The position numbers and the translations under genes were made by a program. From the human T2T-CHM13v2.0 reference genome, Homo sapiens, in NCBI RefSeq assembly GCF_009914755.1, contig NC_060933.1: a DNA stretch of 64,000 bases; one strand, 5' to 3'. Position 1 is the first letter of the stretch; every line of letters starts with the position of its first letter. The notes beneath the pieces were generated by a model that was not told where the DNA came from, did no database searches, and saw only the letters and a program-made list of their open reading frames with translations. This document shows positions 1,037 to 50,448 of the stretch, piece after piece.

Positions 1037-1258
1037 CAACCTTCACCTCCCAGGTTCAAGTGATTCTCACACCTCAGCCTCCTAAGTAGCTGGAATTACA
1101 GGCACATGACATCAAGCCTGGCTAACTTTTGTATTTTTAGTAGACATCGAGTTTTGCCATCTTGACCAGGCTGATCTCAAACTCCTGGCCTCAAGTGATC
1201 CATCTGCATTGAGCTCCCAAAGTGCTGGGATTACAGGCATGAGCCACTGGCCCCTGCC
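1037..1258 (-). mobile_element. Alu, truncated in the right arm
   Basis: Antisense Alu motifs CTCCCAAAGTGCTGGGATTACAGGC and TTTTGTATTTTTAGTAGA; no poly-T tail. Confidence 0.93.
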
Positions 1259-1296
1259 TCACTAGGCCCTGCCTCACTAGGCTCTGCCTCACTAGG
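1252..1296. repeat. 15-bp tandem repeat x3 (CYCTGCCTCACTAGG)
   Basis: Units at 1252, 1267 and 1282. Confidence 0.95.
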
Positions 1297-1716: not shown

Positions 1717-3689
1717 TTACACCTCTGTAGTGGTCCCTTCCTTCGAGTGTCTTCTTTGAATTGACTTATTTTTTCCTGCTAAGATCCTGCCTCATAGGTG
1801 CCTGGAGAACAGGCTCCTGCCTTGTTCATCTCCACAACCCCTGGGTCAGACTGCAGAGCCTGGGCTCCTACTGTGTAACAGGCAGCCAGAGTCCATCAGA
1901 AATTGGCTTGAAATTCTCCTATCTCTTGGGCCCTTAGGGTTAGGGCTGCTGCTTTGGGTGTACGGCGCCTGTTTCACTCCCAGGAGCTTAGCCTTGTGAT
2001 TTCTAGAGATGCCAAGTATATTATGTGGCTCACATGGGGGCAGGTGAGAAAAGCTACTGTCAGTGAAGACAAAGACCTTACCCTGCCTTCAAGCTTAGCA
2101 TGTCTAAGTGGAAGCAGGTTTCATGAGAGAAGAAACAATGAACTTTTAGGGTTGGATAGAGTTGGGTTCAAATCTTTGATCCTCCTCTTATACACTGGGC
2201 AGCCTTGGGCAGGCCACTTCTCTCTGAGTCCTCGTATGTAACTGGGAGTGACAATAGTCTCCTCACTCCAACGCCACCATAAGCATTACACATGGTCATG
2301 GACAGGAAGGGCTGGGATGGGGGCCTGGTCCTCATGCCCTTCAAGTGCGCATCCTCAGATCTTTCCCCTCTTGATGCTTGTAGCGGTTTCACAATCTCCA
2401 CCTTCCTCGCTCCCCTACAAAATGGCTTTCATGATACTATATCCCCAGTGCAGCCTTTTGTGATAAGATGGACTCAAAGCCCCAAATTCCATTCCGAGGA
2501 AAAGCCAGTGCTCCCCAAGATCACTCTAAATCCCCAGAGGACTTTCCCCTGGTCACCTTTGGCTCTGAGTGAGTTCCCTTTCTGAATCATCTTTTTATCT
2601 CACCAGTGCTGTTTCTTTCCTACGCTGTTGTGGAGGTGGAAAATACAGCCCTTTTCATTATTTTCACAAAAATAAGCAGACTTTCCCCAAATAGAGTAAA
2701 ACTTGCACTTGGCCATCATAGCCTCTTGGCCTCCAGAGCCCATTTCTTCCCCCTCCTCTCACCTCCTCCCAGGATTCCCCCTGGGAACTCCAAATTCTCA
2801 CTTTCTTGCACTGGGGCTCTGCAGCTTTGTCCAGTCCCCGCTCTGGAATTTTGCAGGACCTACCTTTGCCTGCCTGGGTCTACCGAGTGTACACAAGAAC
2901 AAAAGGGCCTTTAATCTCCCGGCTCCTCTCCCATCCGAGTGCAGCTGTGCCTGTGAACAATGACATTGTCCCTGCAGGACATACCCAGGGTGGGGCACCA
3001 GGTAAGGCCCAAGTGTAAAATTCCACGTGCTATCGACTCACCTGCCATCCTCCTCAGGAGGTTGGACAGAGGTGGGACAGGAGCTGCCCTCTTCAAACCC
3101 AGTCCCAGGTTCTAGTCCCAGCTCTGTGAATGGCTGACTGGGTGACTCCAGGCAGGCTGCAGTCACTCTCCCAGCCTCAGTGTCCCCACTGTTGGCTGAA
3201 GGTCTGGAGCCCCAGCCCTGAGAGGTGCCAGCCTGCGCCCTGGAGGCTGGCAGGCCGGCTGCAGTGCTGCCGTCCTGGCACGGGAGCTCAAGCAGTGCAC
3301 TCTCGCACTGGGGCTGCGCTTTCTTTTGATCACGCTTTCTCCTCACCTTGTCCTTGTGTCACTGGATAGGATCCCATCTGTCATGCTGAGCCATCTGCTT
3401 CCTCTCCTGCCATCTCTGCTGCCCAACTCTAAGTAAATTAAAAAACAAAGAGGCAGGAAGCCGCTGACAGCCGCATTTATCCTCATTTCTGTGGCTGGCA
3501 ATGGGAGCTGAAGGGCTGGCTTGGTGGGTCTGAATTAAAGATTAGAGCAGGTGGGGAGGGAGACAGTCCTGTGGCTGTGACACCTCGACCGCGGATGACA
3601 CCTTGGGTGGCCATGAATGTGGGCAGGGGCTGGGGAGGAAGGGATTCGAGTCAGTGTGAGGGGCAGTGGTGGGACGCTTTGGAGTTGGG

Positions 3690-41482: not shown

Positions 41483-41530
41483 TAATTTTAATGATGTTGC
41501 ATGAAAGGTGGGACAAACCAATGGAGATAT

Positions 41531-41964
41531 TGTGGTGGGCGTGTTGGTCCCTTTAAGAGAGCCTGTGACAGGGTGGAGTTGACTGACAGTTGAATCTATC
41601 ATAGCATTCACCCCAAGGCCATGCTTCCCAGGACTGCTCCCAGCTAAAGACTCAGCACAGAGGGATACAGGTGCTGGCTCCTTCCTGCCTACTACACAAT
41701 TCCTCTAACAGGCTACCTGTCTTTGGTAACTTTCCCTGGCCAAGACCTTTCTCGAGTTGCATGGTATCTGATACTCTTCCTTCCTGACAATCTTTCCTTC
41801 CCATTCTCCTTCCACAGGTGTCAGACCTGCATCATTGTCTGAAGGCTCTCCCCACCTACTCCTACTCCAGCACCCTTTCTCCTTCACAGGTGTTTCTCCT
41901 AATACATCTCTTGCACATTGGACCCTATCCTGGTGCCTGCATCTTGGAGGCCCCACCCTAGCAG
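41531..41964 (+). mobile_element. LTR16-family ERVL 5' LTR
   Basis: CACAGGTGTCAGACCTGCATC...GAAGGCTCTCCC...CTAATACATCTCTTGCACAT; followed directly by internal sequence. Confidence 0.75.
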
Positions 41965-43542
41965 AAGTAGAGTGTCAGAGAGCAGGCAGTAGAATGATGG
42001 GCTTTGGGGCCCCACTTCCTCACTGACTGGCTGTGTTAAGGAGGCTTCCATCCCAAGTGGGACACGTGGAATGTGGGACATTGATAGTCCTTGGCACAAG
42101 GTGGTGGCCCAACTGCTGAAAATTTCACAAGTGGTGACTTGGGAAAATGTCCCAGTGGAGAATAACACCCTGGATGGTACAATAGTACACATACTTGAAG
42201 GAATAGAGGGAACAAGGCCAACAAGAACTGTGGATTTGGCTGGGTTTGACAAAGGTGTGACACCCTGCAGAGGGATAGTGAGAAATTCAGGGCATTTAAC
42301 AAACAGTTAAAGGCTGAATGTGAGAGCCTGAGCTGCCCCTTTGGTAGAGCACAAAGAAATCATTACCTTTGCCATAAAACCAGACTCGGGACTTGATAGA
42401 GTTGCTGAGGGCCATAGATGTTTAGATGTCCAGGGAAGACAGGTCTATTAAGCTAAGGTAGGTCCTGGTTAGGGAAACATAAAATCTTGAAACATGAGTG
42501 GGGACCTCTGGGAGATGTCTGCAAGAATCTGCAGGGTCTGTAGACCCCTCCTGAACTGCCAGCATTTCCAGAGGTGGCCCACCTTTCTGTAGTAGGAGCT
42601 TGCATTTCCTCCTTGTAGGAAGACACTGCAGAAACCTTGCACCCCCCACACCAACCCCTCTCTCCTCAAGGAAGCAGGAGCCCTGTCCTCAGGAGCTGCT
42701 CCCCCTTTGTCAGGCTGCTAACCAGGATTAAATCCTAGAACTTGGCTTGGGACGTGCTGAGTCTGATAAGGGAGGAAAGAGATTACACCTCAAAGGAGGT
42801 GTGAGAATTAGCTAGCATGTAGCATGAGAAGCCAGGAGAGTAGCCCTGGGATTGGATTTTGGGGGTGCTTGACCAGGAGGCTGGAACATGTGACTAAATA
42901 AGAGATAATTTGTTGACCTGGGGGCACTTTTTTGGGACACTGAGACTTAACACCCCAGCAAGGACTCCAGGGTTAGAGGCAAATTCATTGCTAGGGTGGC
43001 TCTTAGAAGAAGACTGGCAATGCTGATGGACAACCTGAGCAAGGTGAAGATGCTGGAGTTACCTTGGCAGGTGGTAGAAGGAGGGTTCAGAGGCTCAGGG
43101 AGGTGAGCATGCTGGAGTCGATATCTTATATGAGGCCGGAAGATCCACCCGAAGATTATGTTCCATGGGATGCCCCAAGGACTTGACATTCACCAAACCA
43201 TCAGGTTTTTTCTGGTGACTGGAGCATCCACACCCCTAAGTGGTGGCTGTCCTCTGCCAACCAGGGTTGACAGGAGGACAGGCAGTCACAGAGCTGGGTT
43301 TGTAGACAGCCATGAACATCATAGGCCTTGAAGTAATAGAGAGGCCAGGTGGTAGCACTTGTGGGGTGGTGATGCAGGCAATATGGTAACAACCAGCCAG
43401 ACTGGAGCTTCCCACCACAGGAAGTTGTAGCGGTGTAAATAGAACATAGGGTCTATTATGGACTGGATGTGTGTTCCCCCTACCATATTCTTTTGTTGAA
43501 ACCCTAACCCTCAGTGTGATGGTGTTGAGAGCTGAGACCTTT

Positions 43543-44252
43543 GAGAGCTCATTAGGTTCAAAGTCATGAGGATGGAGCCCCCATAATGGGATTGGTGCCT
43601 TTATAAGAAGAGGAAGAGACCAGAGCTCACTGTCTTTCTGCCATGTAAGGATACATCAAGAATGCAGCCATCTGCAAGCCAGGAAGAGGGCCTTCTCCAG
43701 GAATAGAATCAGCCAGCACCTTGATCTTGGACTTCCCAGCATCCAGAACTGTGAGAAGTAAGTGTCTGTTGTTTAAGCCACCCAATCGATGGTATTTTGT
43801 CATTGCAACCTATGATTAATTTTAGGTGTCAACTTGACTGGATTGACGGATACCCAGATGGCTGGTGAAGCATTGTTTCTGGGTGTGTCTGTGAGGGTGC
43901 TTCCAGAGGAGACTGAAGTGTGAGGCAGTGGACTGACAGAGGAAGAGCCACCCTTAATATGGGTGGACACTCTCTAGTCAGCTGGGGGCCTGACTTGGAC
44001 ATTCAGGCAGAAGAAGAGGGATTCTCTCTCTCTCCCTTCTGGAGAGACTCTTGGACTGGGAAGTCCAAGATCAAGGTGCTGGCTGATTCTATTCCTGGAG
44101 AAGGCCCTCTTCCTGGCTTGCAGATGGCTGCATTCTTGATGTATCCTTACATGGCAGAAAGACAGTGAGCTCTGGTCTCTTCCTCTTCTTATAAAGGCAC
44201 CAATCCCATTATGGGGGCTCCATCCTCATGACTTTAAACCTAATGAGCTCTC
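43543..44252. repeat. Long inverted repeat: 197-bp arms, 196/197 identical, 316-bp spacer
   Basis: 44056-44252 is the reverse complement of 43543-43739; single mismatch at 43559/44236. Confidence 0.97.
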
Positions 44253-44556
44253 TTTCCTCTTCCAGCCCCTGGACATCAGACTCCAGATTCTTTGGCTTTT
44301 AGACTCTGGGACTTGCACCAGCATCCTCCAGGGGACTGTCTGGCCTTTGGCCTCGAACTGGGGCTGCATCATGGGCTTCCCTGGTTCTGAGGCTTCTAGA
44401 CTTGTCCTGAGCCATGCTACCAGCATTTCTGGTTCTCCAGCTTGCTGATGGCCCATCAAGGGACTTTCTCACCTCTGTAATCATGTGAGCCAATTCTCCC
44501 TAATAAATCCCTTTTCATATATCCTATAGGTTCTGTCTCTCTGAAGATGAATACAC
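43811..44556 (+). mobile_element. MLT2B-like ERVL LTR carrying an inverted MLT1A copy
   Basis: ATTTTAGGTGTCAACTTGACTGGATT start; AATAAA 44502-44507; ends AATACA; TSD CAACC / CAGCC. Confidence 0.88.
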
Positions 44557-44894
44557 AGCCCAAGCTGACTAAGAGAGTGTACTTAGCAGTAAAATACACG
44601 GGCAGCCCACAAAGGTGCTGCTTAACATCTCCTGTAGGAAGAACACATGAATAAAGGAGCAGGAGGCTAAGGATGGCCCCCTAGTAAGAGGGCATGCTTA
44701 CTCACTCGGTTCATAGGCATGAGCCAGTTTTCATATCCAGAGTCCATTGACCCAGGAGGAGGCTAGTCCCTAGGGAAAAGGATTCCAAAACACCACAGCA
44801 AGTATATACTGTGATGACTCCGCCATTTCTCCTCCAAGGGATCTATGCCCACTTACTCCAGTGATTGTACACTGTGGAGCCCCACACGCAGTCA

Positions 44895-45157
44895 CACAGT
44901 CTCTATTGCAACTACTCAATTCTGTCACGGTATGAAAGCAGTTGCAGACAAAACATAAACAAATGAGTATGGCTGTGTTCCAATAAGACTCTATTTATGG
45001 ACACTGACATTTGAATTTACATCATTTTCACATGTTACAAAATATTCTTCTTTTGAGTTTTTTAAATGCTTAAAAATATAAAAATCATTCTTAGCTTTCA
45101 GGCCATACAAAAATGGGCAGTGGGCTGAGTTCACAGGCCATAGTTTGTCAACTCCCA
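44895..45157. mobile_element. MER58B-like hAT-Charlie MITE
   Basis: GCAACTACTCAATTCTG...GGCTGTGTTCCAATAA...GGCCATAGTTTG. Confidence 0.85.
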
Positions 45158-45890
45158 TTCTAGTGTGTTGACATTTGTCAACATTTTTAGTTTAAAAAAT
45201 GAGTATTACAGTCAAAGAAGCTGTACCCTGCTGGGGAGTCACCTTGATCCATGCTGCTCAAGTTCACTCCTGCTTGGGGACAAGATCCTTTGCCTGTGTC
45301 CTCTTTCCTGTGTCTCAAGTTCCCCCCCAATCTTGTTTTTGAGCTCTCAAGAAATCTGGAATCAGTTAACTTCATAAACTCTCTACCCAAGTAAGGCTGA
45401 ATCTCACTATATTATTTGAAGCATTACTGTTCTTATCCGTCCATCACAACCTCCACCACTGCCTCTCACTCCTTAAAACCAAGTCCTGGGCCTTGCTTTT
45501 AGATAACAAAGGTCTAATAGTGTGTTTTCCCAAACAAAGCAATCGTCCACTAAGGTGAATTTAGCGTTCATCTCTAAAATGCAATGACTCTGGCAAGCAG
45601 CTTTTAGAATAATAAATTTAATCCCCACTGTATATGACCAACTTGAATCTTACCACAATCCTATGTGGATAGAAAATAAGGAAATTGAGATGTTGTGAAA
45701 CTGTGTAGAGACCTAGCATTAAGCCAAACACTTCAGTGGATAGAAACTGGTTTGGTTAAACTGGAACCATAAAACAAATGTGGGAATTGCTGTCTTCACT
45801 CTTACTATTCTGTATATAGAAAGTGATTCCACTGACCTGAGGGTTGCAAACTCAAATGTCATCAGATGCCCGATAGAGTAACGTGAGTGA

Positions 45891-46273
<383 letters not shown>

Positions 46274-48699
46274 AACACTTTCAAAATAAAAATATACCCT
46301 TGCATAACAGTATGCTTCTTCAATAAAGCACATCCATGGGACAAATCCAAGCCGTGGGCCATCAGTTTGCAACCTCTTGTCTGTCCTTGCCGTTTAGCTA
46401 ACTGGTTCATGAACAAGGCTGTGAAGAGTGGCATCCTGAAAAGTCCCCCTTTGAAATCTCCAGATGCAAATCCCTTCATGGTAAAGACCAGCAAAATGAA
46501 GCCCAGGACAGGGAAGGGACTTGCCCAAAGCAATACAACCAAACTGTTGTAGCAGAACTGGGATTTGAACCCAGTTCACCTTAAGTCCCAACCCAATGTT
46601 CCTCCTCTCCCTCACCGTGTCTATCTAAAGGAGCTTAAAACTGGAGATGTTAATGCTGGCAAAGTGAAGCCTGTAGCTGCTAATTCCGGCTGCATCACTT
46701 AATTCATCCACCAACTGGCCGAGTGAATGAAAAATGAATCAGCTGGCATTATGAGTAAGTGGCACTCAGCTGCTTTCTGCCGGCCAGAGCTGCCCTGCAT
46801 CTGCAGGTCAGACCCCCATGTGGAATTTAACCATTAGGGCCCACATGACTGCAGGCAGCCAGGCTGAGGAGGGGGAACGGATACTCACAGACTCAGGGTT
46901 TCTTCCGGGGCTCAGAGCCGTGCAGCCACCTCCCCACCCTCCCATGTGAGACTGAGATGATTTAAATATCACAACCACAGGAGCCAAACACACGTTTCAA
47001 TGTCACCCCAATTAGGGGGATTGCAAAGTTGGATGGGCCCTCGAGGGAAGCACCGGCGACACCTGCTAGATGAGAGAACAAGGGCCCCGTTGCCATGGGG
47101 GTGCAGCATCCAATGCCTCGACTCAGGAAAATGGGAACTTTGGGGTCCATCTGTGCTGAATCTTGACAAATCCCAGCCCTTCTGTTGGCCACTGCTGACA
47201 AATGGACAGATAGGATCCCTACTGTGCATATTGGACGGGGTTCTTGTGAGAAATGAGGCACAGTGAAGGTGAAAATACTATGTGAATAGCAAAGCAGTAA
47301 AACATCTTTGCTGTTACTATGAAGCGTCCCTAAGGTAGAAGTTGAATGGGAGGGCTAATAGAAATTCTTTTTAAGGAGTAGGGTACTATTACGGTTGTAG
47401 TTACTACTGTTTCTACCTAAAGGGCTCTATTCTATGAGAGAGAGACAGAGTCTCTCCACATAGCCCCAGAGGCACAGTGAGAAAGTTGAGCCATGGGCAG
47501 TTCAGGCAGCAATGGAGGAAGACTTTTATACAGAGCTATACAAAGACAGAAGGGAGGGACACAGGAAGCAGTGAGCATGCAATCGCTGGGCGTGTCCAAG
47601 CTAAGGCTGGATTTGTCACTGATGCTGTGAGAGCACCCAGGCATCTGATGGAAGGAGGAAATTTCCACGGAATCACCTCTCGGGTCCCTTTCAGGCCTCA
47701 TGCACTGAATTTCAGATTCTGTTGGAGGTAGGGATAAGCGGATGGGAATAAACCAAGAACCTGGAGCTGTGGGTCCAGGCCGGGCTCCATCTCAACTTGC
47801 TGGAGCTCTCCCCTCCCTCCTCCCCAAGCCCCCTCCCAGGCTTCGCAGCCTTAAGAGGAGTGGCTTCACCAGATCAGTGCACCTGGGGTTCTTCCAGTTG
47901 CAAATGCCTTTTCCAGTGGCCTCTCATGGAATGCCATGTGTTGAAGTACGGGGACAGAGTTTCTTGTTCCTTCCCTCCTGGTGACCTTGATGGTCCCTTC
48001 TTGCAATGGAGGGCTTGGAGGAACAGAGTTTGGGAACCATGGCTTGGAAACAACCCCCTTTTGTTGGCTCTGGCAGTGCCTGAACTTCCCACAAGTATTT
48101 GGCTTGCATTCCAACATCACCTGGTAAGACAGGGCCCCCTCTTCACAGAGTCTCAGTTTTGTCACCCAGAGACAGCCCTCTCAGGGCCTGAGCCCCTGTT
48201 CCTCCCCCATCCTCACCTCCTGGGCCCTGAGAACTGAAGATGGGAGTGTGGATTTGCACAGGAAATGACTTGATTAATGTCTCTGTCGATGTCAGAGATG
48301 GAGGATGAAAGGAGGTTGTCAGAATTATGAAAACATGCCCGCATCCCTGGGAAGATCAGTCCCTTTTGATATCCTGGCCTTGCAATTAGTCTGTGGGGAG
48401 CCAGGGCCCTGTGATTCCTGAGGTGTCCTAACCATCTCGGCTGTCTTTGCCACGGCAGCCTGCACTTGGGGCAGGGAGTGGGAGGGAGATGCAAATCAGG
48501 TTTGATAATGCCAGTTCAGCCCCTCCCTCTTTCCCTCCCAGTGCAATACACACTTCAATCTCCTGTTTATAACTTCCTGTTTTGCAAGTGATCTTGCAAA
48601 GGTGATCTTCAGAAAGGTGAGGACAAGTAATACCCAAGATCGCAGGTGAAACTGAATTAGCCTGTTTGCATACCCATTTCTCCTCTGTGAGCTCCTTGA

Positions 48700-49157: not shown

Positions 49158-49772
49158 TGTGTCCCTAGCACCTGGGACTGGCCTGATTAGGGCTCAGTGA
49201 TTGTGGTGAAGCTATGGAGAGGACTCTGGAGATGAAGCCGAACTCCTCATCCCGAAGATGAAGAAAGTGAGGCCTGATCTAGAACCTTGGTTCACGACCC
49301 TGGCCTCCAGACACTGTCAAGAGAAGGAATTCAAGGCTCAGTCAGAATATAGTGAAAGTACAGAGATTTATTGCAAAGCAAAAGCATACACTCAAGAAAG
49401 GGGAGTGAGGGTGTGTTCAGAGAGAGTCACTTAAGGGGGGTTGTGGTTTCTAACTTTATGGGTTTCTTTAACCAACGGGTGGAGTATCCATGAAGATTTC
49501 TGGGAAAAGGTGAGGACTTTTTGGAAATGTGGTGCCACCCATTTTTACGCTAAATATGGGTGTTCCAGAACTGTTATGGCACTGGTGGGTGTGTGATTAT
49601 GTTAATGAGCATATAACGAGGTCATTGGTGAAACTGAGGTCAAATCCAGCACCATGTTGGGTTGAGTCGTTCTTAACCAGCTTGGCCACATCCTGGTTTT
49701 CAGGGTCTTATTGGCCCAAGCTTCTGCAGCTATTTCAACAGTTTCCTTTTTGTTATACAGCTATTTCAACAG

Positions 49773-49827
<55 letters not shown>

Positions 49828-50448
49828 CTGCCTGGAATTTTCTCCTATGACCACCTTGTATTATTTCTGTCTCATTATATTAGTAACTGAGGCAGAAAGT
49901 GTTGAGAGCCTCAGGAAGTGAAGGCAGAGGTCCATGAGGGCTTCCAGAAGGGAGAGGTCTCAGCCAAGGTGGGGAGGTAGAGAAGCTGGAGAGTCTAGAT
50001 TATATTAGGGAAGCAGGGAAGAGTGAATTGATCAGAGTCTTCACAACTCAGGTCTGATGGGACATCCCAATTTAGAGGACTTCTTTATCACAATGGCTAA
50101 TCAATGGGCTGGGTACCAGAGTCTGGGAAGGTGGCCTCTGTAGGTGCGGGCTCCCTCCTACCTTCCCAGTGTCACCACAGGCAGGTACTGGATCGTATAA
50201 GGTTAAGAGGAAGCCCAACCCCCTGAGACTCCCTTCTTCCCAGGTTTCTTCCTGGGTCTGTCTGTCACTCCTGCCTGAACTCCTGCAGCTCCCTCTGCAT
50301 CTGGATGACCACCTGCACGAGTGTGGGTACATCTCTTCCCATCTACCTGTGGGATGAGGAGTTGCGCTTCATCTCCAGGGTCCTTTCCATAGCTTCACCA
50401 CAATCACCCACATCCCCATCAGGCCCTGTCCTAGGTACTGGGGACACA
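49158..50448. repeat. Diverged inverted repeat, ~96-98 bp arms
   Basis: Core 49197-49253 vs 50351-50407 matches 53/57 as reverse complement; outer 21 bp match 18/21. Confidence 0.88.
49275..49874 (-). mobile_element. ERV1 (MER4-group-like) solo LTR with (TG)n at 49775-49821
   Basis: GAATTCAAGG...GAGATTTATTGC antisense poly-A region; ends TGTCTCA. Confidence 0.7.

What the first reader, a model, noticed from the sequence alone, without database searches (positions are those of the whole stretch)
43543..44252. Near-perfect 197-bp inverted repeat made from an ancient LTR
Seen: 44056-44252 is the reverse complement of 43543-43739 with one mismatch, across a 316-bp spacer. The left arm is the middle of an otherwise complete MLT1A; the right arm is an internal fragment with no LTR ends or TSD, sitting inside the neighbouring MLT2B. 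Established: MLT1A is an old eutherian family whose independent copies are heavily diverged, so 99.5% identity cannot come from two insertions left alone. Inference: either a recent template-switch inverted duplication, or an older one kept identical by arm-to-arm gene conversion or recurrent inversion of the spacer. Standard annotation would show only two MLT1A hits and hide this.
Basis: partly seen in the sequence, partly recalled or inferred. Interest (0 to 1): 0.8.

Follow-up and report, generated by a model that had tools for sequence, protein, structure and literature searches.

The report
Small local inverted duplication of LTR
A 197-base piece of an ancient retroviral LTR was copied backwards into the neighbouring LTR 316 bases away, probably within the last several million years, which makes it a real but ordinary example of a known class of small inverted duplications.

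Summary
Arms 43543-43739 and 44056-44252 are 197 nt, differ at 1 site and lie 316 nt apart. Other copies of this LTR family in the same assembly match the arm at only 73-81%.

The left arm is the source. Its LTR (43453-43815) runs unbroken through both arm boundaries. The right arm is an insertion that splits an otherwise continuous MLT2B-type LTR, with no poly(A) and no long target duplication.

At the one mismatch the copy keeps the family-typical T (6 of 6 informative copies). The source has a derived C, so the difference arose after copying. This also argues against an assembly artefact.

One difference in 197 nt fits an age below the ape/Old World monkey split unless the arms are being homogenised.

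The best reading is a single replicative template switch, four-point type 3-2-1-4. Small local inverted duplications are already described: 277 events, median 284 bp, in 1,019 long-read human genomes.

Presence in apes, polymorphism and spacer orientation in other haplotypes could not be tested here. Interest is low to moderate.

The parts
43453..43815 (+).
   Evidence: It aligns to 8 of 8 independent copies from about 43453-43456 to about 43811-43814 at 72-78% identity. 7 of 8 copies span the outer arm boundary and 8 of 8 span the inner one.
43543..43739 (+). Left arm: the 197-nt segment that served as template
   Evidence: Homology to other family copies continues on both sides of it, so its ends are not breakpoints in this element.
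43559..43559 (+). The single arm difference: a derived C in the source arm
   Evidence: 6 of 6 independent copies with a base in this column have T, as does the right arm read in reverse complement. 2 of 8 copies have a gap here.
43740..44055 (+). 316-nt spacer: the 3' end of the source LTR (to about 43815) plus the 5' part of the MLT2B-type LTR (43822-44055), in original orientation
   Evidence: The source LTR continues across 43739/43740. The 5' MLT2B part has the same orientation as the 3' part and is collinear with intact copies.
44048..44055 (+). Proximal junction: pentamer CTCTT (44048-44052), then 3 nt GGA (44053-44055) with no counterpart in intact MLT2B copies
   Evidence: Sequence read. 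The alignment to 12 intact MLT2B copies shows no equivalent of these extra bases. No base-for-base continuation of arm homology.
44056..44252 (-). Right arm: the inserted reverse-complement copy of 43543-43739
   Evidence: It occupies a position where 12 intact MLT2B copies have only 7-13 nt (9 nt in 8 of 12). No LTR ends, no poly(A), no long target duplication.
44250..44254 (+). Distal junction: a second CTCTT, made of the last 3 nt of the arm plus 2 nt of the target. It lies 202 nt after the first, and the arm end and the target share GAG..CTC.
   Evidence: Sequence read. MAFFT places the intact copies' bases at this point against the end of the arm. The interpretation as microhomology or a 2-5-nt target duplication is inference.
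44253..44547 (+). 3' part of the interrupted MLT2B-type LTR
   Evidence: It matches other copies over query positions 1-295 at 75-81% and is adjacent to the 5' part in intact copies.

Best explanation
This is one mutational event, a small local inverted duplication. While this stretch was being replicated or repaired, a growing DNA strand that had reached about position 44052-44055 inside the MLT2B-type LTR left its template. It primed on the like-sense strand 316 nt behind: either its own newly made strand folded back, or the other parental strand at the fork. It copied 197 nt of the neighbouring MaLR LTR backwards (43739 down to 43543). It then returned to the original template at a spot sharing a few bases (GAG..CTC) with the end of the copied tract. 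The result is a roughly 202-nt insertion: 197 templated nt, 3 filler nt, and a 2-5-nt re-copied target.

In the four-point model this is a 3-2-1-4 event, the type that creates a new inverted repeat without inverting the spacer.

The event is young. It most likely post-dates the orangutan split and quite possibly the chimpanzee split. After it, the source arm acquired one T-to-C change.

The repeat has no demonstrated function, and the 316-nt spacer should keep it structurally quiet.

Shown: the anatomy, the direction of copying, the polarity of the mismatch and the outlier identity. Inferred: the polymerase mechanism, the exact junction history and the age.
For: - The arms are 196/197 identical, with abrupt ends.
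- Direction of copying: the left LTR is continuous through both arm ends against 7-8 of 8 independent copies. The right arm interrupts an MLT2B that is collinear with intact copies. In the four best-continuing genomic places (five rows; L021 and L055 cover the same place), the subject gap against the unaligned query is 6/8, 9/11, 16/18 and 31/33 nt. 12 of 12 aligned intact copies lack the insert.
- There is no poly(A), no LTR termini and no long target duplication, so it did not arise by retrotransposition.
- The copy keeps the family-typical T (6 of 6 informative copies) while the source has C. The difference is therefore a later substitution, not a copying or assembly error.
- Dating: 1/197 = 0.51% (Poisson 95% interval 0.013-2.83%). 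P(<=1 difference) is 4e-5 to 4e-4 at human-macaque divergence, 0.011-0.034 at orangutan, 0.15-0.25 at gorilla and 0.30-0.42 at chimpanzee. The divergence values are recalled.
- Literature, passages seen: type 3-2-1-4/1-4-3-2 events create inverted repeats and made up 31% of high-confidence human-chimp events (PMC5453318). They are the majority pattern in great apes (PMC7954356). Inverted duplications found within 2 kb of their source number 277 events with a median of 284 bp, mostly have 1-15 bp microhomology, and a replicative origin was suggested for them (PMC12350158).
Against: - No outgroup or second haplotype was available. The empty site, and hence the true microhomology, is unknown, and the age rests on a single substitution.
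- Under a strict 197-nt insertion model both junctions are blunt. The shared CTCTT / GAG..CTC could be coincidence: my rough estimate is a few percent given the freedom in placing it. Capture of a fragment by end joining is therefore not excluded.
- 197 nt exceeds the longest 2->3 fragment (128 nt; median 12) in the great-ape template-switch scan, which searched only about +-100 nt.
- Gene conversion or repeated template switching between the arms could mimic youth.
- The assembly was not checked against reads.
Confidence: 0.75

Rival explanations
1. The inverted duplication is old (it predates the ape/Old World monkey split). The arms have been kept nearly identical by arm-to-arm gene conversion or by repeated template switching between them, possibly with NAHR flipping the spacer.
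For: Identity above 99% between arms is what conversion produces in the large sex-chromosome palindromes (abstracts of PMC8981503 and PMC8600007, seen in the search listing). Template switching can also re-homogenise hairpin arms (abstract of PMC8794818). Nothing in the single available sequence can exclude it.
Against: It is not needed: one difference in 197 nt is expected for an event a few million years old. The arms are only 197 nt. From recalled knowledge, this is near the lower limit for efficient mammalian homologous recombination, whereas the known conversion-maintained palindromes have arms of kilobases. The Warburton set of 166 has arms over 8 kb (as cited in PMC5398296). The spacer in CHM13 is in the original orientation. 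One unconverted difference persists.
Confidence: 0.08
2. The outcome is the same, but by non-replicative repair. A double-strand break in the MLT2B LTR was sealed by end joining that captured a 197-nt fragment, or a polymerase-theta-type copy, of the nearby LTR in reverse orientation.
For: Under the strict 197-nt model both junctions lack microhomology, and there are 3 unexplained filler nucleotides (GGA) at one junction. Both are features of end joining.
Against: The source lies only 316 nt away on the same molecule and is itself intact, which favours copying over cut-and-capture. The arm end and the target share GAG..CTC, and the pentamer CTCTT recurs at both junctions. The published class of such events is read as replicative (PMC12350158). 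Sequence alone cannot separate the two mechanisms cleanly.
Confidence: 0.13
3. It is an assembly or cell-line artefact in T2T-CHM13.
For: Reads could not be inspected. Fold-back chimeras occur in long-read libraries (recalled).
Against: The copy carries a T that the CHM13 source arm does not have, and that T is the family-typical base (6 of 6). An artefact made from the CHM13 sequence would be identical to its template. The insert returns cleanly to the original strand inside a collinear LTR, unlike a fold-back chimera. The whole structure spans 710 nt, well within single HiFi reads (read length recalled).
Confidence: 0.02
4. Two independent insertions of the same LTR family that happen to be alike.
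For: None beyond both arms belonging to the same family.
Against: Independent copies are 73-81% identical to the arm (39 other scored matches). The right arm has no LTR ends and no target duplication. The arms share this copy's private features: both lack 4 bases that 6 of the 8 other copies have next to the mismatch site.
Confidence: 0

Closest known systems
Small local inverted duplications in human long-read SV catalogues (SVAN 'inverted duplication' class; Schloissnig et al. 2025, PMC12350158, passages seen)
   Same: The inserted sequence is a reverse-orientation copy of sequence within 2 kb of the insertion point. The size (197-202 nt) is close to the reported median of 284 bp. There is no long breakpoint homology and at most a few bp of microhomology. 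A replicative origin is inferred.
   Different: That catalogue lists variants that are polymorphic among 1,019 people. It is unknown whether this one is polymorphic or fixed. No chr9 entry at these coordinates was found in the part of the supplement held (the file was cut, and the GRCh38 coordinates I tried were estimated from memory).
Short-range template-switch mutations, four-point model type 3-2-1-4 (Loytynoja & Goldman 2017, PMC5453318; Walker et al. 2021, PMC7954356)
   Same: [quoted passage not shown] The switch-point order 3-2-1-4 creates a new inverted repeat and leaves the spacer uninverted. A snap-back of the nascent strand is geometrically possible.
   Different: The scale differs. 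Published events have a median 2->3 length of 12 nt and a maximum of 128 nt, and the search space was about +-100 nt. Here the fragment is 197 nt, copied from 316 nt away. If the CTCTT duplication is real, point 4 lies 2-5 nt before point 1. That ordering was not seen in the 2017 scan but was seen in many events in 2021.
FoSTeS/MMBIR complex rearrangements and fold-back inverted duplications (e.g. PMC3907307 and PMC11293582; titles and abstracts seen)
   Same: Microhomology-primed template switching to an inverted template during replication or repair.
   Different: Those events are kilobases to megabases long, often with copy-number change of genes or loss of the chromosome end. This one is a 0.2-kb insertion with no other change within about 2 kb on either side.
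Sex-chromosome palindromes maintained by arm-to-arm gene conversion (PMC8327919, PMC8981503, PMC8600007; abstracts seen)
   Same: An inverted repeat with over 99% arm identity.
   Different: Those arms are kilobases to over a megabase long, carry genes and are conserved across species. Here the arms are 197 nt of LTR, on an autosome, with no annotated gene in the window.

Membership tests
Local inverted duplication (insertion-type SV; PMC12350158) | The inserted sequence realigns in reverse orientation within 2 kb of the insertion breakpoint | tested here: met
   The right arm 44056-44252 is the reverse complement of 43543-43739, 316 nt away. The definition is taken from the methods passage.
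Local inverted duplication (insertion-type SV; PMC12350158) | It is an insertion relative to the uninterrupted target, and most of the insert is explained by the local copy | tested here: met
   12 of 12 intact MLT2B copies lack the insert. 197 of about 197-202 inserted nt are templated. The true empty allele at this locus was not seen.
Local inverted duplication (insertion-type SV; PMC12350158) | No long (>=50 bp) breakpoint homology, typically 1-15 bp microhomology | tested here: inconclusive
   No long homology. Microhomology is 0 bp under the strict 197-nt model, or 3 bp (CTC) with a 5-nt repeated CTCTT under the 202-nt model. An empty-site allele is needed to decide.
Four-point template-switch mutation, type 3-2-1-4 | [quoted passage not shown] | tested here: met
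   Order along the + strand: 43543 (point 3), 43739 (point 2), about 44055 (point 1), then the adjacent target base (point 4). The spacer is collinear with both LTRs. The model is described.
Four-point template-switch mutation, type 3-2-1-4 | Short range and short fragment (as catalogued: median 12 nt, maximum 128 nt, template within about 100 nt) | tested here: not met
   The fragment is 197 nt, copied from 316 nt away. This limit comes from the scans' design and is not a mechanistic limit. The event works like one but lies outside the catalogued range.
Conversion-maintained palindrome | The arms are more alike within a species than between orthologous arms of different species, and the structure is conserved across species | not testable with these tools
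   No primate or other human assembly is available. The ape T2T paper's supplements were unreadable.
Conversion-maintained palindrome | Long arms (kilobases) | tested here: not met
   The arms are 197 nt. The large-palindrome set has arms over 8 kb (as cited in PMC5398296).
Independent solo-LTR insertion | LTR termini present, flanked by a short target-site duplication, and divergence typical of the family | tested here: not met
   The right arm lacks both LTR ends: other copies extend about 90 nt and about 75 nt beyond it. It is 99.5% identical to its neighbour, against 73-81% for other copies.
L1-mediated event (twin priming or transduction) | Poly(A) tail, 7-20-bp target duplication, L1 sequence | tested here: not met
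   None is present at 44040-44270. These defining features are recalled.

The most novel reading that the evidence does not exclude
The inverted repeat is not a passive scar. It would be a small autosomal palindrome that predates the human-chimpanzee split, whose 197-nt arms evolve in concert (by conversion or repeated template switching) and whose 316-nt spacer flips by recombination between the arms, so that both orientations segregate in humans. Alternatively, a read-through transcript from the source LTR would fold into a 197-bp near-perfect double-stranded RNA hairpin, far more perfect than inverted-Alu duplexes. That would make it a natural small-RNA, ADAR or MDA5 substrate.
Probability: 0.06. 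Interest if true: 0.55.

Novelty: new member of a known kind. Interest (0 to 1): 0.25.

Why it matters
As an individual locus it matters little. It lies in a gene-free stretch, no known RNA family matches it, and its wide spacer should keep it from forming hairpins or stalling forks (review passages).

Its value is as a clean, fully resolved example. It sits in the size gap between the 10-100-nt template-switch mutations catalogued between apes and the kilobase-scale FoSTeS/MMBIR rearrangements. It carries an internal clock, because the copy has frozen an older state of its source.

Repeat annotation would indeed show it only as two hits to one old LTR family. A genome-wide screen for pairs of old repeats that are too similar to each other would recover this class in fixed form. 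Together with ape assemblies, such a screen would give the rate and junction spectrum of mid-sized template switches.

Tried and rejected
One search failed for a missing argument and was not repeated.
- Paralogue as outgroup: I looked for a second copy of the locus in the same assembly that could date the event. None exists. The only matches above 81% to 43950-44360 are the locus itself and its own left arm.
- Published tables: I searched the supplements of PMC12350158 for coordinates beginning 38297 or 38298 (CHM13) and 38273 or 38274 (my estimate of GRCh38, made from a recalled gene position). There was no chr9 row, but the file was cut when stored. The supplements of the ape T2T paper PMC12058530 could not be read, being a PDF without text, and its main text has nothing on this locus.
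- Rfam scan of 42500-45500 at E<=1: 0 matches.
- Search for further pieces of the same event within about 2 kb on either side: none.
- Extending the copy inward: the 4 nt TGGA before the right arm match the reverse complement of 43742-43745 if 2 nt are skipped. I judge this too weak to claim, since the chance of such a match is of the order of 5-15% given the free offset (my estimate, not computed).
- A random-sample census of the genome (at most 2 Mb could be fetched) was considered and dropped as too small to bound the frequency usefully. The 66 loci already in hand served as a control instead.
- Two paper look-ups failed on term syntax and were re-sent corrected.

Full report
**Observation**

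The inverted repeat is exactly as described. Arms 43543-43739 and 44056-44252 are 197 nt and lie 316 nt apart. They have one mismatch, at arm position 17: C at 43559, against A at 44236 on the + strand, which reads T in reverse complement. Homology ends abruptly at all four arm ends. A sensitive self-comparison of 41500-46500 finds no other piece of the event. The arms contain no CpG and are 49% G+C.

**Is it more than chance or family background?**

Yes, on three counts.
- The window's own 3.1-Gb assembly could be searched. Apart from the locus itself and its own left arm (99%), the 39 other scored matches to the arm are 73-81% identical (40 of 2765 first-look candidates were scored, so counts are lower bounds).
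- Within the 64-kb window, 28 inverted pairs of 40 nt or more lie within 5 kb of each other. Among the 25 listed, all but this one are 72-93% complementary.
- As a control I scanned the 66 other LTR-bearing loci fetched during the work (213,235 bases). Of 39 inverted pairs of 50 nt or more, none reaches 98%. One 51-nt pair is 96%, 14 are 80-90% and 24 are below 80%.

**Which arm is the original?**

The left one. The left arm lies inside an LTR that aligns to 8 of 8 independent copies from about 43453 to about 43814 at 72-78% identity. That alignment runs straight through the outer arm boundary in 7 of 8 copies and through the inner boundary in 8 of 8.

The right arm splits a second LTR. The 234 nt before it and the 308 nt after it each match many copies of one family. 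In other genomic copies the two halves are adjacent. In the four best-continuing genomic places (five rows; L021 and L055 cover the same place), the gap in the subject against the unaligned query is 6/8, 9/11, 16/18 and 31/33 nt. In a multiple alignment, 12 of 12 intact copies have only 7-13 nt (9 nt in 8 of 12) where the window has the 197-nt arm.

No repeat library was at hand to test them.

**Junctions**

There is no poly(A), no LTR terminus and no long target-site duplication, so this was not a retrotransposition.

Read strictly as a 197-nt insert, both junctions are blunt. However, the window has 5 bases just before the arm that no intact MLT2B copy has. In addition, the pentamer CTCTT occurs at 44048-44052 and again at 44250-44254, 202 nt later, the second time made of the last 3 nt of the arm plus 2 nt of target. 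The end of the copied tract and the target also share GAG..CTC; MAFFT in fact aligned the intact copies' bases at this point to the end of the arm.

My reading, which is inference, is a roughly 202-nt insertion made of 197 templated nt, 3 filler nt (GGA) and a 2-5-nt re-copied target, with a 3-nt microhomology at the return switch. Given the freedom in placing such a repeat, I estimate a chance occurrence at a few percent. This is suggestive and not proof. The empty allele from another species or haplotype would settle it.

**The single mismatch**

In the column of the mismatch, 6 of 6 independent family copies that have a base carry T (2 of 8 have a gap). The right arm, the copy, also has T, and the left arm, the source, has C. 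So the copy preserves the older state, and the source changed T to C after the duplication.

This has three consequences.
- The mismatch is not an error made during copying.
- The structure cannot be an artefact generated from the CHM13 sequence itself, since the template base is no longer there.
- Real time has passed since the event.

**Age**

One difference in 197 nt is 0.51%, with a Poisson 95% interval of 0.013-2.83%. I used recalled genome-wide divergences: human-chimpanzee 1.23%, gorilla about 1.7%, orangutan about 3.3%, macaque about 6.5%. I also allowed a 20% lower rate because the arms have no CpG. The probability of seeing at most one difference is then:
- 0.30-0.42 if the arms have diverged as long as human and chimpanzee;
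- 0.15-0.25 for gorilla;
- 0.011-0.034 for orangutan;
- 4e-5 to 4e-4 for macaque.

With a flat prior on age and no homogenisation, that is about 70% for an arm divergence below the human-chimpanzee level and about 99% for one below the orangutan level. These figures are one minus the values. A young event needs no further mechanism to explain the identity.

**Mechanism**

The geometry is a reverse-complement copy of nearby upstream sequence, inserted with the spacer left in its original orientation. In the four-point template-switch model of Loytynoja and Goldman this is type 3-2-1-4 (mirror 1-4-3-2). That type creates an inverted repeat and made up 31% of their high-confidence human-chimpanzee events (PMC5453318, passages). 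Walker et al. found these two patterns to be the majority in great apes, and also many events where point 4 precedes point 1 (PMC7954356, passages).

Those scans looked only about 100 nt around mutation clusters. They found 2->3 fragments with a median of 12 nt and a maximum of 128 nt, so this event is larger than anything in them.

It nevertheless sits squarely within the inverted-duplication class of Schloissnig et al. 2025 (PMC12350158, passages). That class is defined by realignment within 2 kb of the insertion. It comprises 277 events with a median of 284 bp and is the commonest inversion class outside mobile elements. Only 8.8% have breakpoint homology, most have 1-15 bp microhomology, and the authors suggest a replicative origin.

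I therefore commit to a replicative template switch: either snap-back of the nascent strand or a switch to the other parental strand at the fork. I give roughly 0.6-0.7 odds for this over capture by end joining, which the possibly blunt junction and the 3-nt filler keep alive.

**Consequences**

As single-stranded DNA the 710-nt unit would fold into a 197-bp stem. The minimum free energy is -301.8 kcal/mol, against -98.4 +- 5.3 for 20 shuffles (z = -38).

The review passages I read say that risk falls with spacer length. Replication stalled at inverted Alus with a 12-bp spacer but not with a 52-bp spacer in eukaryotic cells, and the eukaryotic Okazaki initiation zone is only 100-200 nt (PMC7999016). 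A 316-nt spacer should therefore make this repeat stable.

No Rfam family matches 42500-45500 at E<=1. According to the hub's annotation, no gene is annotated in the window. Recombination between the arms could in principle flip the spacer. In CHM13 the spacer is in the original orientation.

**What could not be done**

The decisive test is presence of the right arm, arm identity and spacer orientation in apes, monkeys and other human haplotypes. It needs sequences that none of the tools hold.
- There is no paralogue in the assembly to serve as outgroup.
- The supplement text held for PMC12350158 has no chr9 row at the coordinates tried. That file was cut, and the GRCh38 coordinates were my estimate.
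- The supplements of the ape T2T paper were unreadable.
- I ran no literature search for this specific locus. My four literature searches were about the class of event.

**Verdict**

This is a real, cleanly resolved and probably young inverted duplication of 197 nt of an old LTR into the neighbouring LTR. It is a new member of a known and fairly common kind of structural change. It is useful as a worked example and as a template for a genome-wide screen, but not surprising to a specialist.

Inverted repeats as such are abundant in the human genome, but most are short (80th percentile of arm length 36 nt; PMC5398296). I found no published count for arms of about 200 nt at over 99% identity.

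Noticed in passing
window 1037-1259 and 1316-1536: Two adjoining inverted matches: 156 nt at 78% with arms 188 nt apart, and 65 nt at 80% with arms 56 nt apart. Together they form an imperfect palindrome of about 220-nt arms around a 56-nt centre, partly inside a masked repeat (1301-1638). It is probably a closely spaced inverted pair of SINE-type repeats, an arrangement said to be depleted in the human genome (recalled).
   Followed up: no
window 49158-49253 and 50351-50448: An inverted pair reported as 57 nt at 93%. With gaps it extends to 98 nt at 84%, so it is an ordinary diverged repeat pair and not a second young duplication.
   Followed up: yes
L033/L044 (G000:C23 about 153,736,600-153,737,140, +) and L034/L045 (G000:C23 about 153,579,690-153,580,230, -): Two MLT2B copies on contig 23 give identical scores and extents in opposite orientation about 156 kb apart. 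They presumably lie in the two arms of a large inverted segmental duplication or palindrome.
   Followed up: no
L060:2563-2613 and 3238-3288 (G000:C9 about 148.08 Mb): A 51-nt inverted pair at 96% identity, about 625 nt apart. It was the only pair above 90% among the 66 control loci, and could be a smaller event of the same kind.
   Followed up: no
window 43559-43566 and the aligned copies: Both arms lack 4 bases that 6 of the 8 other family copies carry just after the mismatch site. This is a private deletion of this LTR copy that was inherited by the duplicate, and it gives further evidence that the right arm derives from this particular left element.
   Followed up: partly
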